Under the pieces are notes generated by a model, which saw only the letters and a program-made list of their open reading frames with translations, was not told the origin of the DNA and did no database searches. Below are positions 1,453 to 35,269 of a stretch of DNA of 36,292 bases, in pieces (the first letter of the stretch is position 1; every line of letters starts with the position of its first letter). The stretch is from a virus (lineage: Duplodnaviria; Heunggongvirae; Uroviricota; Caudoviricetes). Made by a program: the position numbers and the translations under genes. Where the stretch lies: positions 1 to 36,292 of IMG/VR virus record IMGVR_UViG_2877285697_000006, one strand, 5' to 3'.

Positions 1453-1489
1453 GCCCCTATCGTTATAATACGCGGTAGGGGCGTTTTTG
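1453..1489 (+). terminator. hairpin (GCCCCT...AGGGGC) followed by GTTTTT
   Basis: 6-bp GC stem with long loop then T-run, after stop of 1019..1438. Confidence 0.35.
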
Positions 1490-1501
1490 TTTGGAAATGG
1501 T

Positions 1502-3181
1502 ATGAAAACTAAACTGTATTCGTATATTCGCTTCTCGTCTATGCGTCAGAATGATGGTTCGAGTTATGAACGACAAATCAGGATGGCTAGAGAGATTGCG
1601 GTAAAGTATGACCTTGAACTGGTAAATGATTATCAGGATCTGGGTGTATCTGCGTTTAAGGGTGCTAACTCCAAAACAGGGGCGCTATCTCGTTTCCTTG
1701 ATGCAATAGGTAGATCCGTTCCTGTTGGTAGCTGGCTATTCATCGAAAACTTGGACCGTTTATCCCGTGCCGATATTGTCAGTGCGCAGGAGTTATTCCT
1801 TTCAATCATCCGTAGGGGGATAACCATTGTTACTGGCATGGATAACAAGATCTACTCGCTTGATACTGTTACCGCTAACCCGATGGACCTGATGTTCTCC
1901 ATCCTTTTATTCATCCGTGGTAATGAGGAAAGCCAGACTAAGCGCAATCGTACTAACTCAAGCGCACTGATTAAGATTAAAGCTCATCAAGAAAATCCAC
2001 AAAATCCGGCTGTTGCAATCGAGGAAATTGGAAAGAATATGTGGTGGACTGATACCACATCTGGTTATGTGCTTCCTCATCCGGTCTTCTTCCCTATTGT
2101 TCAGGAAGTTGTGGAATTACGCAGGAATGGACGGTCAACCGCCGAGATACTGGATCACCTTAACGCGACATACACACCACCACCAGCCGCAAGTCACAAG
2201 AGGCATTCAAACTGGTCACGGGCAATGATTGAAAGGTTGTTCCATACCCGCGCTTTGATTGGTATCAAGGAAATCTCTGTAGATGGCGTTAAGTATGAGT
2301 TAAAGGATTATTATCCTCGTGTGCTAGATGACGCTGAGTTTTATCACCTTAAGAAAAGCATTGGTGTTAGAGCATGTAACTTTGGAGACAAAGAAGAAGC
2401 TAAACCTATTCCCTTGCTTAGTGGTGTTGGTCTATTGAAATGTGAACATTGCGGTTCCGCTATGGTTAAGGTGAAAGGAACAAACAGACGGCCTAACCAA
2501 TATCGTTATTCATGCGATGCAATGCGCTCTAGTCGTATTGAATGTGTGCATACAAACTGGAGTTTTCGCGGCGACCAATTAGAGAAAGCTGTATTGCAAT
2601 TGCTGGCTGATAAAATCTGGATTGCTGAAGATAAGGCTAATCCGGTTCCGGCTTTGAAAGTACAGATTGATGAAATATCACGCAAGATTGATAACCTGAT
2701 TACCCTTTCTGCTATGACAGGAGCAACGAAGGAGCTAGCCGATCAGATTACTACCCTCAATAGCGAGCGTGAAACACTCTACAATCAACTTAAGATGGCA
2801 GAAGAGGAAATGTATTCTGTTGACTCTCAAGGCTGGGAGAAGCTCGCAGAATTTGATTTAGAAGATGTTTACAACGAGGATCGCATTAAGGTCCGGTTTA
2901 AGATTAAGCAAGCTCTAAAACGGATCGGGTGTAGCAGGATTGACAAGTACAAAAACTTGTTTGTACTGGAATACATCGATGGCAAGACCCAGAGAGTTGT
3001 AATAGAAAATTCAAGAGGACCGAGGAAAGGCCGGATCTTCGTTGATTTGAAGACTATCAATGATAGGCAGATTCTGGAGAGTAACGGGCTTGTTCTGCAT
3101 CCATGTTTAGACATGCTGACAGATAAGAACTGGAAACCAGAAGAAGAAATACCAGGTCCATTACAAGAATTTGGAATTTAA
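1502..3181 (+). CDS. large serine recombinase (serine integrase-like)
   Basis: N-terminal resolvase-type catalytic domain (YSYIRFSSMRQ...LDRLSR), ~560 aa, zinc-ribbon CEHCG...YRYSCD...IECVH; start taken at MKTKLY rather than track start 1487. Confidence 0.8.
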   Translation: MKTKLYSYIRFSSMRQNDGSSYERQIRMAREIAVKYDLELVNDYQDLGVSAFKGANSKTGALSRFLDAIGRSVPVGSWLFIENLDRLSRADIVSAQELFLSIIRRGITIVTGMDNKIYSLDTVTANPMDLMFSILLFIRGNEESQTKRNRTNSSALIKIKAHQENPQNPAVAIEEIGKNMWWTDTTSGYVLPHPVFFPIVQEVVELRRNGRSTAEILDHLNATYTPPPAASHKRHSNWSRAMIERLFHTRALIGIKEISVDGVKYELKDYYPRVLDDAEFYHLKKSIGVRACNFGDKEEAKPIPLLSGVGLLKCEHCGSAMVKVKGTNRRPNQYRYSCDAMRSSRIECVHTNWSFRGDQLEKAVLQLLADKIWIAEDKANPVPALKVQIDEISRKIDNLITLSAMTGATKELADQITTLNSERETLYNQLKMAEEEMYSVDSQGWEKLAEFDLEDVYNEDRIKVRFKIKQALKRIGCSRIDKYKNLFVLEYIDGKTQRVVIENSRGPRKGRIFVDLKTINDRQILESNGLVLHPCLDMLTDKNWKPEEEIPGPLQEFGI

Positions 3182-3443: not shown

Positions 3444-3480
3444 GCGGCCTAAATCGCCGTATAACGAACCAAACGCTTTA

Positions 3481-11230: not shown

Positions 11231-13660
11231 TTACATCTTACGGCGCTGTGCGTCTTCTACCGCCTGAGCAACTAACTTAGCGTGACGTTTGATAGCATCC
11301 ATGACCATCTTGTCTGAGCTATTAACGTTGCCGTTAATGTTCAAAGGCGCATTAACTTCAATCGGTTGAGAGTTGCCACCGCCTGATTTTTGAGCAGAAA
11401 GGAAGTCTTTCAAATCACCGTTGGTACGCTGATCAACTACTCGTTCACCCTTATCAAGCAACCACGTACCTTCTTTGGGGATACTGTCAATACCATCATG
11501 TGACATTCCTGTTAAATTTGTTGATTTAATGTTGGCAATATTTCCCATGTTCTGAGAAACAGCCAATGCAGCAGCAGCGATTTTTTGACCTGTGGTTACG
11601 TTGGTCGGATCGTTCCATGCATCGGTAGCAGCCGTCCACATGTTCATCGTCGCTTGTCCGATAGAGAATGCTTTATGAGCATTGAAAGCCATCTGCATAG
11701 CTTTAGTGTTTTCCTGCCCGAAAAGAGTCATTGCAGCAGCAAAACCGCCATACATATCATCGGCTATTGACTGGCGAGCATCAGCATATTTCTTTTCAAT
11801 TGCAGCCATCCGTTTTTGATGGTTTTCATTGAGTTTTTCTAATGCTTCCATCCGTTTAGCCGGATCGGTGATCCCATCAATCTTGAGTTTATCGGTCTTA
11901 TAATCTTGTTCAGCATCCGATTTCTCTTTATCGATTGCATTAAATTTAGCAAACGGATTATTTGAGTCTTGATAATCATAACCACTAGTTAATTGATTGG
12001 TTTTATAACCATCCATTCCCTGTAAAGAATTTTCAATCTGAGAATAGTTTTGCTCGGTATCGTTCACACGACGCATATATTCTTCGTAGGAGATAGCTTT
12101 ACCATCAAGTAACCGTTTATGGCTTTCTAGCTCGTTGTCCCTGATTTGTTGCAATTGTGTTAAAGCATTCAGAGCATCAATCGGATCAGCACCCAACATC
12201 ATTTTATAAACGTTTTCAGTATTCTGATCGATTAGCGCCTGGCGTTTCGCGGCTGCGTCTTCCTGAGAGATTAAGCCCAGAGCTAACGCGTCGTTCACAT
12301 CTTTTAAGCTGTTTTGCAACTGGCTATTTTGAGAAGTGATAGACGCTGCAACTTGCCCTTGCAATTTAACATCAAGTGCATTCAGTCGCTTGATTGCATC
12401 CTCGCGTGCTTTCTGTGCTTTTTCTGCGGCTTCCTTAGCCTTTTTAGCTGCCTCTTCCGCTTTCTTTTTGGCTTCTTCCTCGGCTTTCTTCTCGTTGCCA
12501 GACTTACCCAATGAAGCTGGTCGAGTTGGTGTAGTCGGGATAGTCAAATCACGGTTAGGATCTGCCTTACGGGTTAGATGTTCCCCGTTATCGACAACAA
12601 TCAGAGAGCCATTTTTCTTATAAGAATCACCAAAACGTTTCTTAAATCCTTCAACATCAAAGCCAGCAGTACGAGGATCGACACCAGCACCACGGATCGC
12701 GGCCTTTTCCCAATCTGCCAGATTATTCCAACGCTTTTCTTTATTGTACTTGTCAATAATCTTTTGAGCGTCTTTATGGTTGGCGTTAAGAATACCACCA
12801 GTTGCGGTCTTACCTTCTTTATTCAGACGGTCTAATGCCCTGAATAGAGAACTCTTTTCCCAATCAATATTAAACCATTCGAATAACCAGTTTAAACTAT
12901 CAACCAAAGGACCAGTAATGGTCATACCGACACCTTTCAGGTTATTTTCCAGCTTATTGATATTTTGAGAAAATTTATCATATTTTTTAGCGTTTTCTTC
13001 GGTGACGTTAACAGATTGATTCTGAATAGCGATCATCGCCTCTTGAGCACTATTATATTTCTCAAGCTGGCTGGTCATATGGCTTGAATCACTGGCCAAA
13101 GATTCCATCATGAACTTGATTTCAGCCATTGATTTTCCTGCTTTCTTCAGGTCATAGAACACTTGGATCGCCGCTTTCATACCACCTTGCGGATCAGTCA
13201 TGAAGTGAGCATAGTTTTCTAACTTAAGGCCAACCGATTCTAAATCATCGGCAATACCACCACCGTTAGCCCATGCATCACCCATTTTATCTAAGGTGTC
13301 TTTGTTGATATCACCAAATTTTTCAACTGTTAAGCCAGTACCAGAGAACTCCTTTTCTAATTTTTGAAGGGATTCAATCGAGAGTCCGGTCGCCTTAGAT
13401 ACTTCTGAATACTGTTTAACGTATTCCGCGCCAGCTTTAGCGGCTGCAAAAACTGCGGTCGCAACTAAGCCGATACCACCAGCAGCCAAACCAGCAGAGC
13501 CAGCGATCCCACGAAGAGATCCAGTCAAACCAGACAAACCACCGCCAAAATCGATATTACTTGCCTTTTCAGACAAACTATCTAGAAGGTTAGCGGCTTC
13601 ATTGGTACTTCTCCTTAGACCTTTATTATCCCCTTCTATTGTTACTATATGTTTTGTCAT
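11231..13660 (-). CDS. tail tape measure protein
   Basis: 809 aa, alanine/glycine-rich N-terminus, long coiled-coil and lysine/glutamate-rich repeats, position after G/T chaperones. Confidence 0.85.
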   Translation of the reverse strand: MTKHIVTIEGDNKGLRRSTNEAANLLDSLSEKASNIDFGGGLSGLTGSLRGIAGSAGLAAGGIGLVATAVFAAAKAGAEYVKQYSEVSKATGLSIESLQKLEKEFSGTGLTVEKFGDINKDTLDKMGDAWANGGGIADDLESVGLKLENYAHFMTDPQGGMKAAIQVFYDLKKAGKSMAEIKFMMESLASDSSHMTSQLEKYNSAQEAMIAIQNQSVNVTEENAKKYDKFSQNINKLENNLKGVGMTITGPLVDSLNWLFEWFNIDWEKSSLFRALDRLNKEGKTATGGILNANHKDAQKIIDKYNKEKRWNNLADWEKAAIRGAGVDPRTAGFDVEGFKKRFGDSYKKNGSLIVVDNGEHLTRKADPNRDLTIPTTPTRPASLGKSGNEKKAEEEAKKKAEEAAKKAKEAAEKAQKAREDAIKRLNALDVKLQGQVAASITSQNSQLQNSLKDVNDALALGLISQEDAAAKRQALIDQNTENVYKMMLGADPIDALNALTQLQQIRDNELESHKRLLDGKAISYEEYMRRVNDTEQNYSQIENSLQGMDGYKTNQLTSGYDYQDSNNPFAKFNAIDKEKSDAEQDYKTDKLKIDGITDPAKRMEALEKLNENHQKRMAAIEKKYADARQSIADDMYGGFAAAMTLFGQENTKAMQMAFNAHKAFSIGQATMNMWTAATDAWNDPTNVTTGQKIAAAALAVSQNMGNIANIKSTNLTGMSHDGIDSIPKEGTWLLDKGERVVDQRTNGDLKDFLSAQKSGGGNSQPIEVNAPLNINGNVNSSDKMVMDAIKRHAKLVAQAVEDAQRRKM

Positions 13661-15601: not shown

Positions 15602-18600
15602 TTATTTAGTTGCTTTGAGTTCGGCAATCTCTTTAGTCAATGCTTCAATCTTAGCTTGATATTTGGCGTCCATTTCCTGAATAGCTTTAATAATCAAGGC
15701 ATTAACAGCAGAGTTAGAAATAGTCTTAATTGCTTCCGGTTGTTCTGGATCTTCGGTGGATTGAATACCTACTGCTTCCGGCAATACTTCCTCCAGATCC
15801 TGAGCAATAATACCGACTTCGCGTTTAATCACTGTGTCATCGGAAAGAGATTTAACTTTATCGTATGTGTAGACTTTCAGGGAGTTTACTTTCTCTAATG
15901 CGCCGTCCTGTAATTCTTCCTTGTTAATCTTCAAACGGGAGTCAGAGCGAATGTAAACATCGTTAAAGCTACCGTTGCGATGAGCATTAAAATCACCGTC
16001 CATAGTAAATTCCCAGCGTGCTTGCTGCCCGTTGGCGTTATCACCTCGCATACGGATAATACCAGTACGCCAACCGTGAGTCGAACCGCTACCCGTCCAA
16101 CCAAACTCGAAGGACTGACGATAACCAACATCACCTAAGTTACTATAGCCAGCGATAATAGGGAAATATGCACCAGACTCCTTAATACTATCCATGTTAA
16201 CCAAGAATGGAGCACGGTCACGAGTTACATCAGAGATATCGGCATAACCGAAACCGTTTTTGTTGGCAACAACAACACGACGGTTAAATGTAACACCGCC
16301 TGACGTATGGCGAACAACATTAACATTATTAGCGTAGGTATCAAGAACACCATCACCGTTTTGTTTAAATCCAGTATCACTATCGCCTAAAACAATAGAA
16401 TTTCCACCCAATCCGTTAGCAACACCAACACCAAAACCGCTATTAAACTTAGGAATGGTTGCATCCTGACTAATAGACAGTTGGGGAGCGTTAATTTTAC
16501 CGTTTACGCTAAACTCGATTGCGGTAGTACCGGGACCGCCAGCACGCTGTGTGTAGAAATGCCAGCCGCTTTCATCTGCGCATTCTAATACTTGTTTACG
16601 AGTATCATTACCCCATGCACGAATATTGAAGCTAGATTGTCCGGTATTCTTACCCCATCGCATTTGACCAGCAACTTCAAGATCACCTAAGAAATATGCC
16701 TTTAGTCCACCTGTAGCCATATTACGTTCAGTGCTGAAATGTCGGCCTTTACTGTCTTCGAGATATAGAATGTTATCACGGGCATTATTGCTGTCGCCCC
16801 AATGGTTAAACCGGAAATAGTCTCTAGATTGTCCAGCACCAGCATCAAGTGTTAAATGTTGACCTTTGATGAAAGCGTTTCCAGCGAATCGAGCGGCTTT
16901 GCTTGCACGTTCTAACGTTAATGCGTCTCCGTTACCGTCACCGCCTAATTGAACGTTACCGGAAGTTAAATCATAAATGAATGGACGGTAAGTATTCCAA
17001 CCACCAAATTTATCATTTTCAGCCGTTGACAGAAGATAAACTTTAGCGGAGTCATTACGCCAGAATGCACCATAATTGCCGTAAATCATACGAAATGCGT
17101 TATGGTTGGCAGCAACATATTCGCCGTTAGTATAAACTACTTTAGTAGATCCAGTATTCAGAGAGATTTGACCGCTTTGTTCTAAGCCAATATTGTTAGT
17201 ACCGCTATCGTTATACATCTGCATAGCGTTAGTATCGGCATTTCCATAACCAACCCAACCTTGACGCTTATTTGCACCGTTGCGAGTGTCCCAATATTCC
17301 AGATAGTTACTTTGTCCGGTTGGTCGCTGCATACGAATAGTATTAGATCCGGCATCAAAAACAGCTTTACCAGTATACATAGTGCGTCCAGTGATTCGTA
17401 GAACTTCGCTAGAATCGGTAGTGCCAGTCGCTAAACGATATACGTTACCTTGAACAGTTTCATGCCAGATTGTTTCTGCGGCTTTACTACGGAATTTACG
17501 CAGATATTTTTTACCAGTACCTGAATCGTTATTCAAACTGACAATATCATATGTTCCCTGACCGTTATTATCAAACATCAACGTTCCGGCCTTGTTTTCG
17601 GTGTTGAACATTGTAATAACACGTCCATCAGTAACACCAGTAGACGGCTTAACGAGAGTTATTTCAGGAACGTCATGTACCGTCAGTGTAACATCGTTAG
17701 TTTTACCATATTCGACAATAACGTTATCGGTATAACGACCGTAGTTAACGTAGATATCGTAGTTATCACCGGAAGTATTAACCGCAAATACTTGATGAAT
17801 ATTTTTAGCATTTCGACGATAAGCCGCAATACTAACGCCTTTCGGGTTTCCGTTGCCGCTACGAATGACGATTTCTACAAAGTCAACCTGATCATAGGAG
17901 TTAACGTTATAACCGTTACCACCGAAGATACGAAGCATTACCATTCGACCAGTTTGTGGGATCGTGGCGGTTGCGATTTTGAAATAACCGCGAGTCGCAT
18001 CACCAGCCGGAACAGACATTTTAACGTTTTTAACAAACATCTTGTCAACTTCGGCTTTGGTATATGCGCCAATTTCAGCAGGAGTCGGTTTATCCCCTTC
18101 GTGATACATTTTATAGCTAAACGCTTTTTGTCCTTCTCTATCAAAACCATAGGTTTCAACACGAGATCCACCAGACGCATAACGGAAAGTAAATCCGCGA
18201 CCGTGCGCTTTACCGGAAGAGTGAGGAACGTTAAGAGTTAGATCCATGAGTCCATCTTGACCATTGGTACGGAAAGCACCGAAGTAATTAAGATCTCTCG
18301 CGGTTGAATCTTCCAGATAGTTACCAGTCTTGCTATACAAATACGCGCCGTGATAGGTCTTTGTGTTCTTCTTGATGTAAAGAGCATCGTTAGTACCTTC
18401 AATACCATCAATTCGCTTGTTGGCGGCTGCAATCGCTGCGTCGGCACTGGCCTTGTTATTTGCAACAGTTCGTTCAATGGCTGTCTTATTCGCAGAGACC
18501 GTACTAGTAAGACTGGTGATCTTCGTGTCCGCGTCTTTCTTATTATCGGAAACAGTTTTTTCGATCGCTGTCTTGTTCGCGGAGACAGTACCCGTTAAAC

Positions 18601-19210
18601 TAGAAATTTTATTATCAGCGTCGGTTTTATTCGCGGTAACAGTCTTAGTTAAATTGCTAACATTGGTGTTGGTAGCATCGACTCGCGCGTTAGTATTGGT
18701 ATTGTTGGTGTTAACGGTATTAGTAAGAGTAGTGATCTTACTGTCTGCATCTTTCTTATTGTTCGCGACGGTAGTCTCAATCGCTGATTTGTTCGATGCA
18801 ACGGTGTTAGTTAAGCTGGTGATCTTAGTATCAGCATCAGCTTTATTCGCCGTTACCGTCTTAGTTAAGTTGCTAACATTGGTGTTGGTAGCATCAATGC
18901 GCTTATTGGTTGCGGTGTCTTTAGTGGTAATAGTCTGATTCAGTTCAGATTTAGCAGCAGCCAGATTATTAGCGGCTTCTTGTTTGTTGGAAGAAATAAC
19001 ACGGTCAGTGTTGGTTTTATTCTGGTCTACTTTCGTGTTAAGTTCAGCGTGTTTTTCTGGAGAAACACTAATTTGGACTACGTTATTATTTTTGTCTTTG
19101 GTGTAAATCACATGGTCCGCCAGTTGTAAAGCGATCTCACCCTGTGATAATTGTTCCGGCGTTGGTTTTTTACCAGCCGTTTGTGTGCGTTTAAATTGGA
19201 TCGATTTCAT
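15602..19210 (-). CDS. tail fibre protein with C-terminal intramolecular chaperone (peptidase S74-type) domain
   Basis: 1202 aa; ~33-aa repeats (TKTVTANKxDADxKISSLT...); C-terminus SDSRLKINKEELQDGALEKVNSLKVYTYDK...GIIAQDLEEVLPEAV fits the auto-cleaving chaperone motif. Confidence 0.8.
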   Translation of the reverse strand: MKSIQFKRTQTAGKKPTPEQLSQGEIALQLADHVIYTKDKNNNVVQISVSPEKHAELNTKVDQNKTNTDRVISSNKQEAANNLAAAKSELNQTITTKDTATNKRIDATNTNVSNLTKTVTANKADADTKITSLTNTVASNKSAIETTVANNKKDADSKITTLTNTVNTNNTNTNARVDATNTNVSNLTKTVTANKTDADNKISSLTGTVSANKTAIEKTVSDNKKDADTKITSLTSTVSANKTAIERTVANNKASADAAIAAANKRIDGIEGTNDALYIKKNTKTYHGAYLYSKTGNYLEDSTARDLNYFGAFRTNGQDGLMDLTLNVPHSSGKAHGRGFTFRYASGGSRVETYGFDREGQKAFSYKMYHEGDKPTPAEIGAYTKAEVDKMFVKNVKMSVPAGDATRGYFKIATATIPQTGRMVMLRIFGGNGYNVNSYDQVDFVEIVIRSGNGNPKGVSIAAYRRNAKNIHQVFAVNTSGDNYDIYVNYGRYTDNVIVEYGKTNDVTLTVHDVPEITLVKPSTGVTDGRVITMFNTENKAGTLMFDNNGQGTYDIVSLNNDSGTGKKYLRKFRSKAAETIWHETVQGNVYRLATGTTDSSEVLRITGRTMYTGKAVFDAGSNTIRMQRPTGQSNYLEYWDTRNGANKRQGWVGYGNADTNAMQMYNDSGTNNIGLEQSGQISLNTGSTKVVYTNGEYVAANHNAFRMIYGNYGAFWRNDSAKVYLLSTAENDKFGGWNTYRPFIYDLTSGNVQLGGDGNGDALTLERASKAARFAGNAFIKGQHLTLDAGAGQSRDYFRFNHWGDSNNARDNILYLEDSKGRHFSTERNMATGGLKAYFLGDLEVAGQMRWGKNTGQSSFNIRAWGNDTRKQVLECADESGWHFYTQRAGGPGTTAIEFSVNGKINAPQLSISQDATIPKFNSGFGVGVANGLGGNSIVLGDSDTGFKQNGDGVLDTYANNVNVVRHTSGGVTFNRRVVVANKNGFGYADISDVTRDRAPFLVNMDSIKESGAYFPIIAGYSNLGDVGYRQSFEFGWTGSGSTHGWRTGIIRMRGDNANGQQARWEFTMDGDFNAHRNGSFNDVYIRSDSRLKINKEELQDGALEKVNSLKVYTYDKVKSLSDDTVIKREVGIIAQDLEEVLPEAVGIQSTEDPEQPEAIKTISNSAVNALIIKAIQEMDAKYQAKIEALTKEIAELKATK
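18430..18960. repeat. tandem ~99-bp DNA repeats inside the tail fibre gene
   Basis: Repeated units visible on the DNA; produces low-complexity antisense ORFs. Confidence 0.6.
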
Positions 19211-25119: not shown

Positions 25120-27024
25120 TTAGAACGATGTTACCCAGCTACGGCCTCTGTTTGGGCGTCTGGCGACGTTTTGACGTTGTGGTCGTGTGATTGGCTTAGT
25201 TTCTTCTATTTGCTCGTTAGATTGCGATTTAGGAGCTTCTACGGATTCTTCGACAACACGGTTTAAGCTGTCTTTCATTGCAATGAGTTTATCCCATGAC
25301 ATTTTTGAAAGAACGTAGCGAGAAGCCGCTGTAGCATACACGGCGCAGTCGAGCGCCTCGTTCCTAACGCCTGGGTTCTTTACCCACCTCACGCCAGTAG
25401 TAGTACGCTTAACAGATTCACTTAAAAGCTGATCGAGATAATCATCAGGAACGGTGTCTGATATTTCTAAGCCAATATGAGGATTATCTTTCAGGTTCCT
25501 AGCCAACATTTCACGAAATGCAGTTTTACCCACGTTAACGCCCAGCATAAGCAATTCATGACCACCTGTGCGGGTAGGTTTAACCGGAATGATCGGAGCG
25601 TTACCAGCAGAACTACCTTTGATAGCGTGTAAGTTCTTCCACTTGCCGCAAATACGGTATCCAGCTTGAGTGAATCGACCGTTCGATGTATCAAGGAAGC
25701 TGGCGAGCATAGGAACACGATCACCCGATACAGTAGTAAATTTGGTTTTATGGAAGTTGATTAATCTATCCCATACAGGGGATTCATATCGTTCACAGTT
25801 ATGATCGTAAAAGCTGCGATGATCCAGAATATAAATCTTATCCTTTGCCACGCCCATGATCGTAGTTTCTGCGCGATCTAATTGCTGGTCAGTACCCGCA
25901 CACAAGAAAATCACGTCATCAGGGATATTCTCGATAGAAACATCTGTTTTGAGTTGTTCCAGTTCATTTGCTTCTACTGCCGTGTCCTGATCGTCGTATA
26001 CCTTGCCTAACACGGTGTTAAAAAAGGATTGTAAATCAAAGGATTGCCACGCATGACTAAAATCAACCACACAAGCGCGAATCGTGCTGAAAGGTGAATA
26101 CAGACGACTGATCCAGAATCCGGCTACTTCACTTTCACGGGTTGCTCTCCACTCGCCTTGTGCTACTGCCCTGATTCGTTCCCCTTCTGTCCATGCGTTC
26201 TTACAGTGGGGGCAAATATAACGAGCGGTATCAGGATCGGGTAAGTTCTTACCATCAATGTTACGCCATTCAAATTGAACGTTTTCCCACTCGATCACCT
26301 GGTGTTCCCCGCAATGCGGACACGGAACAAAAAACATACGCATGTCGCTTGATAACCATTGCTGGTTAATGCTTCCCAGCTTACTGGTCGGGGTACTGGA
26401 TACGACTAATCGGCCTTCATCGCCAAAGGTAGTTAAACGGTTAGCAGCCAGTGCCACCGGATCACCTTCTTCTGAGGCTGTAGCAGCATCGATTTCGTCA
26501 AGCAATCCAACCTTTGCGGTCTTACCACGTAGGGTTGATGGACTGGTAAGCGATACCATGTACAGGAAGTGATTCGTTTTTAGCTGTAGCTGGTTATTGT
26601 TGTTAACCGCATTGCGATCATTCTTGTCTGTAACCACGTCTTTTAATGCATCACATGCTTCGATAGACGGTCGGATCTTACCCGCGAGATATTGAGACAT
26701 TTCTTTAGCGGTTGATTGTCCGATAATCATATTGCATGGATCGTTAGCCATCTGGTTAAACAGGATGCCGTTCAGGATGGTAGTCTTTCCGATCTGCGCA
26801 CTGGTCATCAGAACATACTTTTTCTTGTTCTCAAGGAAAGGAGCATCAATCATGCCTTTCTGGAATGACAGTAATTTAACTTTATCCCCCGCTTGAGGAC
26901 CATCTACCAGCACCATATTAGCTTCGCACCATTCAGAAGGAAGGAGCTTAGGCGGTGGAGTGATATATTTTGCGGCATTTTTAAGAATCTTTTTTAATTT
27001 TGCCTTATTTGAAATCAGTTTCAT
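25120..27024 (-). CDS. terminase large subunit, lambda GpA-like
   Basis: 634 aa; ATPase P-loop region (TSAQIGKTT), zinc/nuclease-like CPHCGEHQ...CPHCKNAW; SD GAGGGT. Confidence 0.85.
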
Positions 27025-27111: not shown

Positions 27112-27717
27112 ATGCTAATTAATCAGCAACAAAGAGATGTATTAGAATTAGCCTTTTCTTGTTGTACCGATCATGAATATCGTTTACCAGTTAAACATAA
27201 GCATTTAAAAACCGACTACACAACATCTGGCTTTAGTCGTGAGGAAGCTAAACAGATTTTAATCGAGTTGTATCGCGATCATGGGTATACCGATATTCAC
27301 AACTTCTTTAAGAAGCACCAAACATCACAGACAGAGTTTAATAGAGTTCGTGAATGGTTTGATTTTGACATTAAGCGATTCTATCGAGTAGATGACGGTA
27401 CAATCTATCGGTTGCAGTGGACACCGATTAGGGAAGTGCTTAAACAGAAGAGATTGAATCATGCCATTACACGCTATCGTAACGTGGCTTTTAAGAAAGG
27501 CTATGGTGATACAAGGGAACTATTCGTTGAACTCGCTAACGTGCGATATAGCCACTATTACAGGAATCCTAAAGAGTTCTTCGAAGTGCTGCGCAAAGTT
27601 GATATAAGTCGGGGTACATACTATTCACGGTTGAAGAAGTACGGGATTAAGGCAGAGTTCTTTATGTCGGTTGACGATGGAGAACTTTTTCCGATAAAAT
27701 GTAAGTCCTCTAAATAA
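27112..27717 (+). CDS. hypothetical protein (201 aa)
   Basis: ORF diverging from terL. Confidence 0.5.
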
Positions 27718-27745
27718 AGGTGAACATTCACTTTAATTTGGAGAA

Positions 27746-27979
27746 ATGACTATGACTACTAAAGCTACTCGCGGTCGCCCTGCCCGTTTTAACGCTGAAC
27801 AGATGGCTGATATTGCCTACGCTTACTATACAGCGGATCGCGGGAAGGAAGCGAAAGAACAGATTCTTAGTGAGCACGCTATATCGGTAGCTCAATTCTA
27901 TAAAAATATCAAGAAGTTAGATATTAAATTCTATGTTCAGATTGGCGACGGTCAAATCGTAGAAGCAACAGGTTTTTGA
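27746..27979 (+). CDS. small DNA-binding-like protein (77 aa), paralog of 31027..31209
   Basis: N-terminal RGRPARF motif; aligns along its length with the 60-aa ORF at 31027. Confidence 0.45.
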   Translation: MTMTTKATRGRPARFNAEQMADIAYAYYTADRGKEAKEQILSEHAISVAQFYKNIKKLDIKFYVQIGDGQIVEATGF

Positions 27980-28090: not shown

Positions 28091-28115
28091 AAAAAAGCCC
28101 CTGAAATTCAGGGGC
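28091..28115 (-). terminator. rho-independent terminator for the minus-strand Rha-like gene
   Basis: GCCCCTGA-loop-TCAGGGGC stem followed by TTTTTT on the minus strand. Confidence 0.5.
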
Positions 28116-28123
28116 AAAAATTA

Positions 28124-28921
28124 TTACAGTCCGAAGTGTTCTAGCGATCCAACATTCTGACGAATCATGATAGTCGCTTTATTCTGAATCATGATCGTGT
28201 TATTCGGTTTAGGCAGTGTCAAAGCTGCTTTTTGTTCTTCTTCAAGAACACCCAATTCAACCAGCACCGGAAGCACATCAACAGTGAAAGAAAGTTGATA
28301 GTGAGCGTTCATGCTACAAAACGGTATCGCGGAATCATTAGCAACATACCCACACGGCTTGTTATTTTCATCATAGACGCGCTCAATGTATCCGGCAGTA
28401 CGTAAGGCCGTCAGTGCTTCTTTAACCTTCGTAGCGCCCTTTTTAGCACCTAACAGACGCGTCATTGAATGGCTATCTACGGATTTGCGATGATGTAGAG
28501 TAATCAGTTGCTTGTTCTCGCGAGTTTTCTTTAACGCCAGTTCGATCCAGTCGGTTTCTTCAAAGTCTGCATACGGGTTAACAGCTAAACGTTCCTGACG
28601 CAGTTTTTCATTTTCTTCTTTCAGTCGTTTCCATTCCTGAATAACAATCATTCGACGCTTAACATCGTAACCAGTGACAAGAGTCAGTGTCAGTTCTTCG
28701 TCAAGGTGATATTCGGTTTGTTCGCGTCCATATTGGTCAAAAAAGATGCGTCCAAATTTGGACTCATCTAATTCAAGAGAAGTAAGCATATTTTTAATAT
28801 CACGTTTAACATGCTTATGCTCTTTTTTGGTAAATTCAGCAATCTGACGAGAAGACATGGTCAGCGGTTTGGTGTTATCAACAACCAGAGACACGGAAGC
28901 AGTTTTAACAGCAGTATTCAT
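28124..28921 (-). CDS. phage regulatory protein Rha / antirepressor-like
   Basis: N-terminal SSRQIAEFTKKEHKHVKRDIKNML fits the Rha-family pattern. Confidence 0.65.
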   Translation of the reverse strand: MNTAVKTASVSLVVDNTKPLTMSSRQIAEFTKKEHKHVKRDIKNMLTSLELDESKFGRIFFDQYGREQTEYHLDEELTLTLVTGYDVKRRMIVIQEWKRLKEENEKLRQERLAVNPYADFEETDWIELALKKTRENKQLITLHHRKSVDSHSMTRLLGAKKGATKVKEALTALRTAGYIERVYDENNKPCGYVANDSAIPFCSMNAHYQLSFTVDVLPVLVELGVLEEEQKAALTLPKPNNTIMIQNKATIMIRQNVGSLEHFGL

Positions 28922-29015
28922 AGTAAAAATTCCCCTTAATTAACGGTTTTTTGCGATTTAATCCTCCCTGTTCCGGCAGCACCACCGGAACAATTTTATT
29001 TATAAGAGCTATTTC

Positions 29016-29201
29016 TTATTTGTTGTTAGCACACAATCCGCGTAAAGCCATTTGCAAAGGTGATGGTTTCGGTGCTTTGGTTTCGTCTTTATATTCCACA
29101 TCCACTGTTTCGGTAGCCCAGCCAAAGCCCTTAACATAACGACGACGGCGGGTTTCGATCACTCCTGGTTCACGTTCACGGGTAAAGGTTTTCATGTTCA
29201 C
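29016..29201 (-). CDS. small basic hypothetical protein (61 aa)
   Basis: ORF downstream of a sigma70-like promoter. Confidence 0.4.
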   Translation of the reverse strand: MNMKTFTREREPGVIETRRRRYVKGFGWATETVDVEYKDETKAPKPSPLQMALRGLCANNK

Positions 29202-29252
29202 ATCCTTTTAACAAATCTAGGTCAAGTAAGTTCAAAGTTGTCAAGTGCGATA

Positions 29253-29281
29253 ATCATAAAAAAGTGAGATTTATTTGTCAA
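29253..29281 (-). promoter_or_regulatory. sigma70-like promoter (TTGACA - 17 nt - TATGAT) on the minus strand
   Basis: Consensus -35 and near-consensus -10 with 17-nt spacer, about 45 nt upstream of the ATG at 29201. Confidence 0.5.
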
Positions 29282-29294
29282 CACCCCTTGACAA
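29275..29294. promoter_or_regulatory. perfect inverted repeat TTGTCAA-N6-TTGACAA overlapping the promoter -35
   Basis: 7-bp arms with 6-bp spacer; same half-site as the palindrome at 30655-30668. Confidence 0.4.
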
Positions 29295-29316
29295 GTCGCC
29301 AAAGTGTTGACCTAAC

Positions 29317-29784: not shown

Positions 29785-30360
29785 AGTGGAATCCTCTAAA
29801 AGAAAGTGAATCAAAGTAATTCTGATATTATTTATAAGAGAAAATTCTTGATGATTTTGGAAGGGATGGATTCAGTCGGCTTCGCCTCCTTCATAGATTT
29901 GATTAAAAGACCAGCAAACGTAACTCGGATCTTATAGTTAATATAGTTATCTTTGAAGAAATAATAATCAGGAAGCAATTTCAGCAACCGCAGGTTGCGA
30001 TCCCGAAGGGATAACCAATACCTTTCTAGAAAGTGATTGTTACTCACTTCGTTCGTTTACTAGAATCAGTTATCATCTAGTATTAAATCCCTTTCTAAGA
30101 AAATCCTTTCAAAAGTGAGTGAACGCCGTAGGCGTGAACGTGAGCGAAGCGAACTATCCAATCCCTTTCGAATCCTGCTTGCAGGTCTTAGAAGGTGTTG
30201 GTGGGCGCTACGCGCACGGCTACGCCGTATTCTTTTTGCGAGATCTTTCTTGAACGTAGTGAGAGAAAGCGAGCAAAAAGGAGAACGTTAGTTCGAATTT
30301 TATATTCTATGGTCTGTGGGGTATAATCCCTTTCAAGATCATGCACTTACGTTATTGAAG

Positions 30361-30460
30361 TGTAGGGTTAGTGTAGGTGTGTAGGTTTCATAGAGTAGGT
30401 TTACTGGCTAGTGTAGTGTAGGCCAATCCCTTTAAAGTGTAGGTGTGTAGTGTAGGTTTT
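30361..30460. repeat. cluster of about 7 direct GTGTAGG(T) iteron-like repeats
   Basis: Same-orientation repeats within 100 bp in a noncoding region, followed by an AT-rich stretch. Confidence 0.55.
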
Positions 30461-30654
30461 CTATCAAAATTTTTGACAAAAAATTCTTGTATATTATTTA
30501 ACCAAAAAATCACCAAAAAGCGGCGTAAACTCATGATTTAAAAGTGATTTTCAAAAGATCTCCGTGCCATAATAGGTTATAAAGGTTGATAATCATTATC
30601 TGCCATTTTCAAACAAAAATTTTGATACACTTTTCTCGCTTAGGTCATGGGCAT

Positions 30655-30682
30655 TGACAAGTGTCAAGAACTATTTTATACT
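30655..30682 (+). promoter_or_regulatory. strong sigma70-like promoter (TTGACA - 16 nt - TATACT)
   Basis: Consensus -35, near-consensus -10; -35 embedded in palindrome TTGACAagTGTCAA. Confidence 0.6.
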
Positions 30683-31026
30683 TTTTCTCACTGGTAGGGG
30701 TTGAAATTTTCCAAACAATCCCCATATAGATGATAAGCATGATTTTTTCGTGTATAAATACATGCATGAAAAATGATTGTTCACTTCTGAAAACCTCCTG
30801 ACTCACTGTTAACTCATACAGCACTGGTTAGATACACAGTGCTTTTTCGGTTGAATATTGTACGGATTGATTAATTATTAATCTTCTCTTTAGCAATTCG
30901 TGCTCCCACTGATCGGATATACAGTGGTTTTACAGAGTTTTTGAAAATCATTTTTATAAATAGAATTGTTCAGAGCGAAAAGCTCTTTTTAAAGAAATCA
31001 TTATTCCAGATTTAGGAGGATTCAAG

Positions 31027-31209
31027 ATGGCACGACCTGTTAAGTTCACTCGTGAAATCGTTTTAGAAATGGCAAAGCGTTATTTTGAACTGACACCTGA
31101 TGTAGTGATGGGTGATTGGTTTAAAGGTGAAGGCATTGATCAATCAACCTTCCATAAACTTTTAAAGAAGTATGAAATTCGCGTAAAGATTACCGCCGAG
31201 GTGTGGTAA
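31027..31209 (+). CDS. small DNA-binding-like protein (60 aa), paralog of 27746..27979
   Basis: SD AGGAGG upstream; MARPVKFTRE... aligns with the 77-aa protein. Confidence 0.45.
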   Translation: MARPVKFTREIVLEMAKRYFELTPDVVMGDWFKGEGIDQSTFHKLLKKYEIRVKITAEVW

Positions 31210-33241: not shown

Positions 33242-34535
33242 CTGAGGAATCCCCAGAAAACAAGACAGGCATAGTGAGATGTGATCTAATTGATTGTGCT
33301 AACAATTTCAAGGAGATCACCACTATGCCTGCACGTTCATTATGCCAAAATTTCCTTAACAACATACTGGCCCCTTTGCATCTTTACCGTCAAAAATCAC
33401 TGATTGACGCAACTAATGCTGTAATAAATGGCGCTTCCCTCACACTTACCAGTATCGGGCGTCATTTAACCGGTACGGCATCAGTTAAAAACAAAATAAA
33501 GCGGGTGGATCGACTGTTGGGGAATCGACATTTGCAAAATGAGGTTTCCACCATTTTTCAGCGAATTACCCAAAAGATTACGCGGGGAATGTCTCGTGTT
33601 GTGATACTCATTGACTGGAGTGCTTATCATGCCTCTCGTTTTCAGCTTTTGCGGGCAAGCCTGGCATGTGACGGGCGTTCTTTACCGTTGATGAGTTGTG
33701 TCGTTCCATCATCACAGACAGCGAATGCAGATGTACATGAGCGTTTTCTGGAATCGCTTGCTGAGTGCTTTTCCCCCGGGACTGATGTCATTGTTATTAC
33801 AGATGCCGGTTTTCAGGGGCGATGGTTCCAACAGCTCCGCTCCCGTGGCTGGACCTATATTTGCCGGGTACTGGGCAATCATTATTACAATGTTGGTAAT
33901 GGCTGGGAAAAGGTGTCGGACTCAGGCACAAAAGCATCAACGACAGCAATTTATTTAGGTGAAGGCCTGCTGGGTCGAGATAAAAATGCACAACATGAAG
34001 GGCATTTTTATCTTTATAAAAGTAAGCCTAAAGGTCGTAGATTTAAACGCTCGAAGGAAAGAGCAACCAGACCATCGGTGACGGCTAAAGCTCGTACTGC
34101 CGGGAAATCACCATGGTTTATTTTCACAAACAGTACTGAGTTATCGCCAAAACAGGTAATGAAATTATACAGCCGTAGAATGCAAATTGAGCAAAATTTC
34201 AGGGATGAAAAAAATCCTCGCTGGGGATTTGGACTACGGTTTGGTGCCAGTCATTCATCCGGGCGGGTCACGGTATTGAGTCTGAGCGCAACATTAGCCA
34301 GTATCATTATGTGGTTAAGCGGTTTCAGCCTGGAAAACAAAGGGATACATCATAAATATCAGGCAAATACAGTGAAGCACAGGCGAGTCATCTCGCTATT
34401 AAAACTGGCGGAGAATGTGATTCGACATTCTCCACTCATACTAAACACACTGTCACTTGACGCAGGGCTGAAAGTTCTACAGCAACGGTATACCAATATG
34501 ATAATGGTTTACTAAATTTTCTGGGGATCCCTCAG
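33242..34535 (+). mobile_element. IS10-like insertion sequence (IS4 family), about 1.29 kb
   Basis: Terminal inverted repeats CTGAGGAATCCCCAGAAAA (left) and CTGAGGGATCCCCAGAAAA (right, reverse complement), 19/19 with 1 mismatch; flanking direct repeat GGGTGATTCC at 33232-33241 and 34536-34545 (9-bp TSD with 1-bp ambiguity). Confidence 0.85.
33325..34515 (+). CDS. IS10-type DDE transposase
   Basis: N-terminal region ...KNKIKRVDRLLGNRHL closely matches the IS10 transposase as recalled (IKRIDRLLGNRHL); SD AAGGAG; start at MPARSL rather than track start 33274. Confidence 0.85.
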   Translation: MPARSLCQNFLNNILAPLHLYRQKSLIDATNAVINGASLTLTSIGRHLTGTASVKNKIKRVDRLLGNRHLQNEVSTIFQRITQKITRGMSRVVILIDWSAYHASRFQLLRASLACDGRSLPLMSCVVPSSQTANADVHERFLESLAECFSPGTDVIVITDAGFQGRWFQQLRSRGWTYICRVLGNHYYNVGNGWEKVSDSGTKASTTAIYLGEGLLGRDKNAQHEGHFYLYKSKPKGRRFKRSKERATRPSVTAKARTAGKSPWFIFTNSTELSPKQVMKLYSRRMQIEQNFRDEKNPRWGFGLRFGASHSSGRVTVLSLSATLASIIMWLSGFSLENKGIHHKYQANTVKHRRVISLLKLAENVIRHSPLILNTLSLDAGLKVLQQRYTNMIMVY

Positions 34536-34599: not shown

Positions 34600-35154
34600 T
34601 TAAGACACATCAAATTCATCGTCTTCTTCTGGTTCTTGTTCCGGTTCATCCATTAATGGTAATTCTTCTTCCTCGTCTTCTCCCAAATCTGCATTTTCGA
34701 ACAAGTCCCCTACTTCATTTAAACGACGCTCGATAATCTCTCTTAGCTTATTCTTCAATGTTTTCTGATCAGTGGCGGATTCTAAAATTTCTAAAGCATC
34801 GATCGTACAAATCTGCAAAATAGTCTGTTTCACTTTCCCGCAGTATTCCGCTAGTTCCTGTTCTACATAACCGACAGGAATCAGGAGATTCATTTTTTCC
34901 TGGTTCTCTCGTTCGGCTGCATCTGCCATTGCTCTTTCTCTGCGGAGACGTTCTTGATCAATCGCTTCTTTGATTGAAGTTTGTTTAAGTGGGTTAATTA
35001 CGTTCTTTAGCACCCAATCGCAACCTTCCTTTGCCGGAACACGCCTCGTATTGGTATTGTAAGGTAGTCCCCTTTCTAACCATCGCTTACCGCCACCATT
35101 CAATGAATAGCCATATAAACGGGAAATTTCTGTAAGGGTTAATTCTTCTTTCAT
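34600..35154 (-). CDS. terminase small subunit candidate (Nu1-like DNA-binding protein)
   Basis: N-terminal HTH-like LTEISRLYGYSLNGGGKRWLERGLPY, coiled coil, acidic C-terminal tail; SD GGAGGA; candidate cos-like GC island upstream. Confidence 0.45.
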   Translation of the reverse strand: MKEELTLTEISRLYGYSLNGGGKRWLERGLPYNTNTRRVPAKEGCDWVLKNVINPLKQTSIKEAIDQERLRRERAMADAAERENQEKMNLLIPVGYVEQELAEYCGKVKQTILQICTIDALEILESATDQKTLKNKLREIIERRLNEVGDLFENADLGEDEEEELPLMDEPEQEPEEDDEFDVS

Positions 35155-35269
35155 TGGTTATCCTCCATTAAATTTGCGTAATTTTATTTATTGGTTTTAC
35201 GCAAAATCTAAGCGCCTAAATCGCATTCTAACGAAGGGAAAGATCCAGTAATGGTAAGGGCTGGGAAGT

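What the first reader, a model, noticed from the sequence alone, without database searches (positions are those of the whole stretch)
29275..29294. Operator-like palindromes built on TTGACA half-sites overlap the -35 of two promoters
TTGTCAA-N6-TTGACAA (29275-29294) overlaps the -35 of the minus-strand promoter, and TTGACAagTGTCAA (30655-30668) overlaps the -35 of the strong plus-strand promoter. The half-site TTGACAAGTG also recurs at 29239-29248 in inverted form. These could be binding sites for a dimeric regulator, possibly one of the paralogous small HTH-like proteins, or simply back-to-back -35 elements.
Basis: partly seen in the sequence, partly recalled or inferred. Interest (0 to 1): 0.45.

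Follow-up and report, generated by a model that had tools for sequence, protein, structure and literature searches.

The report
Operator-like boxes at prophage promoters
The two strongest promoters of an unstudied E. coli/Shigella prophage are surrounded by short TTGAC repeats that never change among relatives, so they are probably docking sites for a still unidentified regulator, which is an ordinary kind of phage control element.

Summary
The palindromes are real. TTGTCAA-N6-TTGACAA is exactly at 29275-29294. Each overlaps the -35 of one of the only two 11/12 sigma-70 consensus matches in the 36-kb window.

They belong to a larger set: five TTGAC pentamers around the minus-strand promoter and two at the plus-strand promoter. 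Across 34-37 related E. coli/Shigella prophages, none of the 25 box positions at the minus promoter varies, while half of the other intergenic positions do (Fisher 8e-7). The flanking genes are mosaic. At the plus promoter the arms are invariant and the two central bases are hypervariable.

The partner hexamers have no -10, so they are not back-to-back promoters. RNA folding is not significant. The two palindromes have different geometry, so a single rigid dimer cannot read both in the same way.

The most likely reading is an operator array for an unidentified regulator that occludes the -35. The prophage has no cI/cro-type genes. The candidates are ORFan winged-helix-like paralogs (201, 77 and 60 aa) and the Rha-like protein, and no binding has been shown. 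This is a new member of a known kind, of modest interest.

The parts
29253..29281 (-). Minus-strand sigma-70 consensus promoter. -35 TTGACA at 29281..29276, 17-bp spacer, -10 TATGAT at 29258..29253. Inferred start near 29246. It drives the 61-aa ORF and the Rha-like gene.
   Evidence: 11/12 match, one of only two in the window. The -35 and the -10 core ATCAT are invariant in 37 relatives.
29275..29294 (.). The reported palindrome TTGTCAA-N6-TTGACAA (boxes 3 and 4, tail-to-tail). The left arm is the -35 of the minus promoter. The right arm lies at about -42..-48.
   Evidence: The invariant runs TTGTCAA 29275-29281 and CCTTGACA 29286-29293 are seen in 37 relatives. The spacer is N6 in 34 and N7 in 3.
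29239..29245 (.). Box 2, TGTCAAG (TTGACA on the minus strand). It lies at about +2..+8 of the inferred minus-strand transcript.
   Evidence: Invariant run in 37 relatives.
29219..29225 (.). Box 1, AGGTCAA (TTGACC on the minus strand), at about +22..+28. It mirrors box 5 about a dyad near 29266.
   Evidence: Invariant run.
29306..29313 (.). Box 5, GTTGACCT, at about -60..-67. It lies just after the stop codon of the upstream 165-aa gene.
   Evidence: Invariant run.
30654..30682 (+). Plus-strand sigma-70 consensus promoter TTGACA-17-TATACT. Inferred start near 30690.
   Evidence: Conserved in the 20 'allele A' relatives.
30654..30667 (.). Second palindrome TTGACA-AG-TGTCAA (head-to-head). The left arm is the -35. 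The right arm fills the start of the promoter spacer.
   Evidence: TTGAC and GTCAAG are invariant in 20 relatives, while the two central bases vary (AG, AC, TC, TG, AT).
30644..30660 (.). Imperfect tail-to-tail copy GGTCAT-GGGCA-TTGACAA. It sits at the same position relative to the -35 as the 29275-29294 palindrome.
   Evidence: The upstream half is GGTCAA in about half of the relatives and GATCAT in the others, so it is under weaker constraint.
28124..29201 (-). Operon downstream of the minus promoter: a 61-aa ORF (29016-29201) and a 265-aa Rha/antirepressor-like protein (28124-28921).
   Evidence: PF09669, 4.5e-12. The first gene has three unrelated alleles in relatives.
30820..30848 (+). 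Terminator-like hairpin plus U-run, about 130-160 nt downstream of the plus promoter and before the 60-aa gene (31027-31209).
   Evidence: present in the minimum-energy and centroid folds. Sequence.
27112..27979 (+). Candidate regulators: a 201-aa protein (27112-27717) and a 77-aa protein (27746-27979). They are paralogs of the 60-aa protein at 31027-31209.
   Evidence: paralogy. (the 201-aa protein is 86-98% conserved). (model of the 77-aa protein). The link to the boxes is inference only.

Best explanation
The two palindromes are the most visible part of an array of short K-GTCAA-S (TTGAC) boxes. Five surround the minus-strand promoter and two or three sit at the plus-strand promoter. One box at each promoter is the -35 hexamer itself.

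I propose that these boxes are operator sites for a sequence-specific DNA-binding protein that is conserved across this prophage family. Bound to the -35 box and its neighbours, the protein would keep sigma-70 region 4 off the hexamer. That would shut down two otherwise near-consensus early promoters, either in the lysogen or as feedback after an initial burst.

Shown:
- The boxes exist and are non-random.
- They are the most strongly conserved positions of the intergenic region.

Inferred:
- That a protein binds them.
- That the effect is repression.
- The identity of the protein.

By conservation logic the best candidates are the 201-aa protein, its small paralogs (77 aa and 60 aa), or the conserved C-terminal half of the Rha-like protein encoded by the operon itself.
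For: - The only two 11/12 sigma-70 matches in 36 kb each carry an inverted copy of their -35 within 8-13 bp. About 1.4% of sites do so by chance.
- At the minus promoter, 0 of 25 box positions vary against 45 of 90 other intergenic positions in 34 sequences (Fisher 8e-7). For the four non-(-35) boxes it is 0 of 20 against 44 of 84 (5e-6).
- With 37 sequences, five of the seven invariant runs of at least 5 bp are the boxes. The other two are the -10 core ATCAT and the adjacent AAAAAG.
- This conservation holds although the flanking genes are mosaic. The 165-aa gene is 54-98% identical, the first downstream gene has three unrelated alleles, and Rha is 47-95% identical.
- At the plus promoter the arms are invariant and the centre is hypervariable (Fisher 0.0095).
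- The partner boxes have no -10.
- A 6-bp stem with a 2-nt loop cannot be an RNA hairpin. The fold of the minus-promoter region is not better than shuffles (z = -1.0).
- The same tail-to-tail design, GTCA(A/T)-GGGxx-TTGACAA, precedes both -35 hexamers.
- A temperate phage (serine integrase) must silence near-consensus promoters. This follows from established phage biology.
Against: - No binding protein has been identified. No cI/cro (HTH_3), S24 peptidase or RHH family was found near the sites.
- The box arrangements differ between sites: tail-to-tail N6, head-to-head N4, and direct repeats 19 bp apart. One rigid dimer does not explain them. CRP-family dimers, for example, do not tolerate a 1-bp spacer change (PMC8465061).
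- Immunity operators usually vary among related phages. These are invariant.
- 13 of 33 relatives carry a different plus-promoter allele without the head-to-head partner. There the second TTGACA looks like a genuine tandem promoter.
- The core motif is the sigma-70 -35 consensus, so RNA polymerase itself is a known ligand.
Confidence: 0.5

Rival explanations
1. The extra TTGAC boxes act through RNA polymerase itself. As -35-like hexamers they would give auxiliary, competing or tandem sigma-70 region 4 contacts. These could be weak flanking promoters, RNA polymerase trapping, or promoter interference, with no dedicated regulator.
For: - The motif is the -35 consensus.
- In the alternative plus-promoter allele the second TTGACA has a usable -10: TTGACA-17-TACACT, or TATAAT in L017 and L034. 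Tandem promoters therefore do occur in this family.
- Both arms of the large dyad at the minus promoter read TTGACA-N19-TA(G/A)(A/C)TT.
Against: - In the window no partner box has a -10 at 16-18 bp. 19-bp spacers are poor.
- The head-to-head partner at 30662-30667 lies inside the spacer of the main promoter and points the wrong way.
- Invariance of all five boxes, including those at +5 and +24, is not expected for decoys.
Confidence: 0.2
2. A host transcription factor binds the boxes. One example is a CRP/FNR-family dimer at 30654-30667, which has the TTGA-N6-TCAA core of the FNR site TTGATnnnnATCAA. This would couple prophage early transcription to host physiology.
For: - The site at 30654-30667 matches 8 of 10 positions of the FNR consensus, with identical 5-4-5 geometry (consensus from PMC8465061).
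- The TTGA-N6-TCAA core is kept in all 20 allele-A relatives.
- Invariance across a mosaic phage family fits a host ligand.
Against: - Positions 5 and 10 are invariantly C and G. If FNR were the ligand, T and A would be expected, or at least tolerated.
- No pair of boxes at the minus promoter has FNR geometry.
- A site centred near -29.5 would repress rather than activate.
- No E. coli factor I could recall matches both geometries. RutR and CusR boxes, recalled from memory, differ in spacing.
Confidence: 0.1
3. There is no dedicated function. The palindromes are chance arrangements around strong -35 hexamers, and the conservation reflects recent common ancestry or recombination-junction homology of the cassette.
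For: - The relatives are only 8-14% diverged in this cassette.
- TTGNCAA is nearly self-complementary, which inflates apparent palindromes.
- The window-wide counts of TTGACAA and TTGWCAAGTG are at chance.
Against: - Half of the non-box positions vary while none of the 25 box positions does.
- Randomly placed pentamers would all be invariant with probability about 2e-4. This is derived from the invariant runs.
- The partner test gives about 2e-4 and the cluster test 0.0025.
Confidence: 0.05
4. The inverted repeats act at the nucleic-acid level. They could be an RNA or DNA stem-loop (terminator or attenuator of the upstream 165-aa gene, or a 5'-UTR structure), or a recombination or inversion site.
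For: - The predicted fold of the minus-strand RNA pairs the outer boxes and the inner boxes.
- The element lies directly after the stop codon of the 165-aa gene.
- A serine recombinase is encoded in the window.
Against: - The fold is not better than shuffles (z = -1.03, with 30 of 200 shuffles as good).
- There is no U-tract next to the 7-bp stem.
- The 30654-30667 palindrome leaves a 2-nt loop.
- All 37 relatives carry the segment in the same orientation.
- No compensatory changes can be seen, because the boxes never vary.
Confidence: 0.05

Closest known systems
Lambdoid OL/OR operators (CI/Cro on 14-17-bp palindromes overlapping PL and PR)
   Same: Related palindromic sites sit on two strong early promoters of a temperate phage. 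They overlap the -35, and there are several sites per promoter.
   Different: No cI/cro-type HTH_3 or S24 genes are present. The two promoters are 1.37 kb apart. The half-site is the -35 consensus itself. The geometries are mixed. The operators are invariant across the family rather than immunity-specific.
P22 immI region (Pant, arc, ant, with Arc and Mnt operators); features recalled from established literature
   Same: A strong promoter is followed by a small ORF and then an antirepressor-like (Rha/Ant) gene. Operator-like dyads overlap the promoter.
   Different: The small ORF has three unrelated alleles (61, 48 and 110 aa) and no detectable RHH signature. No divergent mnt-like gene was found. 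The sequences are unrelated.
acr-aca operons (Aca HTH autorepressors on inverted repeats in strong anti-CRISPR promoters; PMC12658196)
   Same: A strong consensus promoter carries an inverted repeat at the -35/spacer. It is followed by a highly variable small first gene and a downstream HTH-containing gene.
   Different: No Acr or Aca homology was tested or found. The repeat here includes the -35 hexamer itself. The downstream HTH protein is a 265-aa Rha-like protein whose N-terminal domain varies among relatives.
FNR/CRP-family sites (TTGATnnnnATCAA; PMC8465061)
   Same: The site at 30654-30667 has the same 5-4-5 geometry and the TTGA-N6-TCAA core.
   Different: C and G are invariant where FNR prefers T and A. 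The other promoter lacks this geometry.
Mycobacteriophage L5 gp71 asymmetric operators and stoperators (recalled from memory: 13-bp site containing TGTCAAG that overlaps the -35 of Pleft)
   Same: The repressor site contains the -35 hexamer. Single asymmetric boxes occur in both orientations and downstream of the start site.
   Different: There is no genome-wide spread of boxes. Of 14 STTGACM sites in the window, six lie in the two promoter regions, and the total is near chance. The host and proteins are unrelated.

Membership tests
Lambdoid CI/Cro operator-promoter | Palindromic site overlapping the core promoter (-35/-10) | tested here: met
   Both palindromes include the -35 hexamer.
Lambdoid CI/Cro operator-promoter | The same half-site spacing and orientation at every operator | tested here: not met
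   Tail-to-tail N6 at 29275-29294 against head-to-head N4 (pentamers) at 30654-30667. Only an imperfect N5 tail-to-tail copy exists at 30644-30660.
Lambdoid CI/Cro operator-promoter | Adjacent cI/cro-type HTH_3 repressor genes, with or without an S24 peptidase domain | tested here: not met
   Pfam and PHROG scans of all neighbouring ORFs gave only Phage_pRha.
Lambdoid CI/Cro operator-promoter | Demonstrated repressor binding and repression | not testable with these tools
   This needs EMSA, footprinting or reporter assays.
P22 immI-type antirepressor control | Gene order: strong promoter, small ORF, antirepressor-like gene | tested here: met
   (phrog_8235 and phrog_63 antirepressor; PF09669).
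P22 immI-type antirepressor control | The small first gene is a conserved RHH autorepressor (Arc-like) | tested here: not met
   There are three unrelated alleles (61, 48 and 110 aa) downstream of an invariant operator region. No family hits were found.
FNR/CRP-family binding site | TTGA-N6-TCAA core in 5-4-5 geometry | tested here: met
   30654-30667. The core is kept in 20 relatives.
FNR/CRP-family binding site | T and A at positions 5 and 10 (TTGAT...ATCAA) | tested here: not met
   C and G are invariant in all 20 sequences. Consensus taken from PMC8465061.
Back-to-back divergent sigma-70 promoters | The partner hexamer is followed by a -10 at 16-18 bp on its own strand | tested here: not met
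   No such match at 9/12 or better or 10/12 or better. The candidates CCTAAC and CCTAAG were read directly.
L5 gp71-type stoperator system | Many copies of the asymmetric site dispersed through the genome | tested here: not met
   There are 14 STTGACM sites in 36 kb, near expectation, and six of them lie in the two promoter regions. TTGACAA is at chance window-wide.
acr-aca-type autorepressed operon | Inverted repeat in a strong promoter, plus a variable first gene, plus a downstream HTH regulator | tested here: inconclusive
   The architecture is present. No Acr or Aca homology search was possible, and the N-terminal HTH of the second gene varies.

The most novel reading that the evidence does not exclude
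An ORFan family of winged-helix-like proteins (the 201-aa, 77-aa and 60-aa paralogs, with an RGRP arm) has evolved to read the sigma-70 -35 hexamer itself as a short monomer-sized box. These proteins would bind in flexible arrangements: tail-to-tail N5-6, head-to-head N4, and direct repeats at 19 bp. They would act as a generic sigma region 4 competitor that silences consensus promoters of this prophage family, independently of classical CI/Cro immunity.
Probability: 0.12. Interest if true: 0.55.

Novelty: new member of a known kind. Interest (0 to 1): 0.3.

Why it matters
The prophage family is uncharacterised. It has no DNA relatives among about 50,000 isolated phages and its regulators are ORFans. 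It nevertheless sits in about 1% of complete E. coli genomes and in Shigella. In one genome it lies next to ISApl1-mcr-1.

The invariant box cassette is the clearest handle on the regulatory switch of this family. It defines short DNA probes and point mutations for finding the regulator.

If confirmed, it is one more example of promoter occlusion at the -35. It would not change current concepts.

Tried and rejected
- IMG/VR scan for TTGTCAA-N4-8-TTGACAAG. It gave at least 120 hits in unrelated contigs, i.e. chance level, and was uninformative.
- GTDB genome scan with TerL. Nothing was confirmed.
- Rfam at gathering and E-value thresholds and tRNA search. Nothing relevant.
- RNA fold of the minus-promoter region. 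Not significant.
- Deep HMMER search with the 201-aa protein. It is an ORFan. Its only distant hits are repeat-containing giant proteins without informative Pfam domains.
- PDB sequence search for the 77-aa and 201-aa proteins. Nothing.
- Foldseek of the 77-aa model. No hit at E <= 0.001. The top hits were winged-helix domains of ArgR, MarR, DtxR and Fur at E > 1.
- Literature searches. No paper on this prophage or on a TTGACA/TGTCAA operator.

Considered and dropped:
- P2 Ogr / P4 delta-type TGT-N12-ACA. The motif is formally present in 29276-29293, but it is centred at about -38.5 rather than -55 and sits at a promoter that needs no activator (from memory).
- Invertible promoter switch. All relatives have the same orientation.
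- Intrinsic terminator of the 165-aa gene. There is no adjacent U-tract.
- LexA box. None is present.
- RutR (TTGACCAnnTGGTCAA) and CusR boxes. The spacing differs (from memory).
- The 80-aa coiled-coil protein with a weak bZIP hit (E 0.003, below cut-off) as the binder of the pseudo-palindrome CTTGWCAAG. The gene is absent from many relatives that keep the boxes.
- The first-gene product as an Arc-like autorepressor. It has three unrelated alleles.

Full report
**1. Observation**

The window reads TTGTCAA-CACCCC-TTGACAA at 29275-29294, exactly as reported.

The third element is TTGTCAAGTG at 29238-29247, also one base off. It is a same-strand variant (TTGWCAAGTG), not an inverted copy.

A consensus scan finds TTGACA-17-TATGAT on the minus strand (29281..29253) and TTGACA-17-TATACT on the plus strand (30654-30682). 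A scan of the whole window shows that these are the only two 11/12 matches in 36 kb.

In 2000 shuffles only 1.4% of TTGACA sites have an inverted TGTCAA within 20 bp. Both top promoters having one is therefore unlikely by chance, at about 2e-4.

**2. A larger pattern**

The pentamer TTGAC occurs 66 times in the window on both strands. Five copies lie within 29221-29311, which 5 of 2000 shuffles reach.

Read in the direction of minus-strand transcription, the boxes lie at about -63 and -44 (inverted), -33 (the -35 itself), +5 and +24.

Boxes 1/2 and 4/5 form a larger dyad around 29266: TAGGTCAA-N12-TTGTCAAG ... CTTGACAA-N12-TTGACCTA.

All boxes share the core K-GTCAA-S. That 7-mer is not enriched window-wide, but six of its 14 copies lie at the two promoters.

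**3. What the window is**

It is a temperate prophage of Escherichia/Shigella. The evidence:
- Exact protein matches are named from Shigella dysenteriae and E. coli.
- It encodes a large serine integrase and an endolysin, a lambda gpA-type TerL and a Rha/antirepressor-like protein.
- The regulatory region has relatives in 58 of 5426 complete E. coli genomes and in many IMG/VR contigs.
- It has no DNA match among about 50,000 isolated phages.
- Elsewhere in the genome only an RB49-like tail-fibre segment matches isolated phages.
- In several genomes the prophage interrupts ycdX.

**4. Conservation at the minus promoter**

I aligned the 115-bp intergenic region from 34 and later 37 non-redundant relatives.
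- None of the 25 box positions varies, whereas 45 of the 90 other positions vary (Fisher 8e-7).
- Leaving out the -35 box and the -10, the figures are 0 of 20 against 44 of 84 (5e-6).
- The invariant runs of at least 5 bp are AGGTCAA, TGTCAAG, ATCAT (the -10 core), AAAAAG, TTGTCAA, CCTTGACA and GTTGACCT. Five of the seven are the boxes.

The flanking genes, by contrast, are mosaic:
- The upstream 165-aa gene is 54-98% identical at the protein level.
- The first downstream gene has three unrelated alleles (61, 48 and 110 aa).
- The Rha-like gene is 47-95% identical.

The cassette is confined to this family, in 54 genomes at 86-92% identity to the window.

Spacing is largely fixed. The palindrome spacer is 6 bp in 34 sequences and 7 bp in 3.

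**5. Conservation at the plus promoter**

There are three alleles.
- Allele A (the window and 19 relatives) keeps TTGAC and GTCAAG invariant, while the two central bases are AG, AC, TC, TG or AT. Box positions vary at 0 of 10 against 22 of 50 for the rest (p = 0.0095).
- Allele B (13 loci) lacks the head-to-head partner. It has a second TTGACA 28 bp upstream with its own -10 (TACACT or TATAAT), which makes it a tandem promoter. A GTGTAG-N8-CTACAC dyad lies between the two.
- Allele C (one locus) has TTGTCA-TGGTG-TTGACA.

When all promoters are aligned at the -35, a tail-to-tail partner 10-11 bp upstream recurs:
- GTCAAggggtgTTGAC at the minus promoter.
- GTCAAgtgtaTTGAC in half of allele A.
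- GTCATgggcaTTGAC in the window.

This imperfect copy at 30644-30660, rather than the head-to-head palindrome, is the true positional counterpart of 29275-29294. Its upstream half is less constrained among relatives.

**6. Tests of alternative explanations**

- Back-to-back promoters. The partner hexamers are followed by CCTAAC (plus strand from 29288) and CCTAAG (minus strand from 30667) at 17 bp. Nothing reaches 9/12.
- RNA structure. The minus-strand RNA fold pairs the boxes but is no better than shuffles (z = -1.03). The 30654-30667 palindrome would leave a 2-nt loop.
- Inversion switch. All relatives are collinear.
- FNR. The site at 30654-30667 has the 5-4-5 geometry and the TTGA-N6-TCAA core of TTGATnnnnATCAA (consensus from PMC8465061). 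However, positions 5 and 10 are invariantly C and G, and the other promoter lacks this geometry.
- RNA polymerase as ligand. This cannot be excluded, because the motif is the -35 consensus and allele B shows real tandem promoters. In the window, though, no partner has a usable -10.

**7. Who might bind**

Family searches give only the pRha domain.

The 77-aa, 60-aa and C-terminal 201-aa sequences are paralogs. A shallow-alignment AlphaFold model of the 77-aa protein (pLDDT 75) has three helices and a beta hairpin. Foldseek gives no significant hit. The top, non-significant matches are winged-helix domains of ArgR, MarR, DtxR and Fur.

The 77-aa and 60-aa proteins occur as alleles down to 52-55% identity, but they keep the RGRP/ARP arm and the GI-x3-F-x-K-x2-KK helix.

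The 201-aa protein is the best-conserved regulatory-region protein (86-98%). It is an ORFan even in a 1.8-billion-protein search.

The 184-aa protein resembles lambda Nu1 by eye and matches phrog_57, so it is probably a small terminase.

Because the boxes are invariant across all relatives, the binder should be a conserved phage protein or a host factor. The variable first-gene product is unlikely.

**8. Mechanism proposed**

The boxes form an operator array in which the -35 hexamer is itself a half-site. A bound regulator would exclude sigma-70 region 4 and silence two near-consensus early promoters.
- The minus promoter leads into a variable small gene plus a Rha/antirepressor-like gene, ending at the hairpin 28097-28115.
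- The plus promoter leads into a roughly 160-nt structured leader with a terminator-like hairpin (30820-30848), and then into the 60-aa, 333-aa and 80-aa genes.

Presence, non-randomness and selection are shown. Binding, the direction of the effect and the protein identity are inferred. Confidence is about 0.5. The RNA polymerase rival is at about 0.2, a host factor at about 0.1, and the remaining rivals at about 0.05 each.

**9. Comparison and novelty**

Functionally this resembles lambdoid OL/OR, P22 immI and acr-aca promoters (PMC12658196). It is not a member of any of these by sequence or by the defining genes (see the membership table). It is a new member of a known kind, namely promoter-occluding operator repeats.

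The unusual points are:
- The half-site is identical to the -35 consensus.
- The box geometries are mixed.
- The cassette is invariant within a mosaic family whose regulators are ORFans.

Interest is modest (0.3).

Noticed in passing
window 29815-31026; L040 and L043 (upstream of the 60-aa gene): About 1.2 kb has no convincing ORF and is rich in iterons: AATCCCTTTC-type 13-mers x5 (30017-30437) and AGTGTAGG x8, all on the plus strand (30359-30456). Relatives with the other allele carry about 10 copies of TTTCAGGGGCAAAAAT instead, and keep GTGTAGG repeats next to the promoter. This could be an origin of replication or a multi-site protein-binding region.
   Followed up: partly
window 28095-28117: The bidirectional terminator hairpin between the 77-aa and Rha-like genes is an inverted repeat of TTCAGGGGC. 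Its plus-strand arm, TTCAGGGGCAAAAAT, is identical to the iteron unit found about 10 times in the alternative noncoding allele of relatives.
   Followed up: no
window 30690-30848 (+): The strong plus promoter is followed by a roughly 160-nt leader with three hairpins. The last is terminator-like (9-bp stem plus UUUUU) and lies 180 nt before the 60-aa gene. This may be a small RNA or an attenuation/antitermination leader. There is no Rfam match.
   Followed up: partly
window 30588-30600 and 29250-29258: GATAATCATTATC matches the right 13 bp of the Fur-box consensus (about 15/19 overall, by eye). GATAATCAT also overlaps the -10 of the minus promoter. Position 30595 varies among relatives.
   Followed up: no
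window 29016-29201 (-); L032 3102-3248; L034 2683-3015: The first gene downstream of the invariant minus promoter has three unrelated alleles (61, 48 and 110 aa). The upstream 165-aa protein is very acidic at its C-terminus and evolves fast (54-98% identity). This architecture is reminiscent of anti-defence cassettes.
   Followed up: partly
window 33274-34515; L031 10410-11522; L037 6636-8268: An IS (DDE transposase) interrupts the right part of the prophage in the window. Relatives carry IS421 at a similar place. One genome (strain PE15) has ISApl1 followed by mcr-1.1 at this position.
   Followed up: no
window about 16500-18350 (within the 1202-aa ORF 15602-19210, minus strand): This is the only DNA similarity to isolated phages: 74-80% identity to the distal long-tail-fibre gene (gp37) of RB49-like T-even phages.
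   Followed up: no
window 3448-3468 and 35215-35235: A direct repeat CCTAAATCGC-N4-TAACGAA lies near the two ends of the phage gene block. Relatives are inserted in ycdX, or lie next to hicB and an LprI-family gene. Whether the repeat is att-related is unknown. The integrase gene (1487-3181) lies outside it.
   Followed up: no
window 2937-2949 (+) and 12747-12759 (-): The identical 13-mer ATTGACAAGTACA lies inside two different ORFs, in each case on the coding strand.
   Followed up: no
window 27112-27717 (+): The 201-aa ORFan contains two copies of the module found in the 77-aa and 60-aa proteins. In a 1.8-billion-protein search its only distant matches are giant proteins (1562 and 2979 aa) that match in 8-10 separate stretches.
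   Followed up: partly
window 34600-35154 (-): A Nu1-like small terminase candidate (phrog_57, 1.2e-11) is encoded 7.5 kb from the gpA-type TerL (25120-27024). The whole regulatory region lies between them.
   Followed up: no
window 30462-30484 and 30605-30627: A 23-nt inverted repeat (83% complementary) has TATCAAAATTTTTG and CAAAAATTTTGATA as its cores. The right arm, ACAAAAATTTTGATA, is the longest invariant run upstream of the plus promoter in 20 relatives.
   Followed up: no
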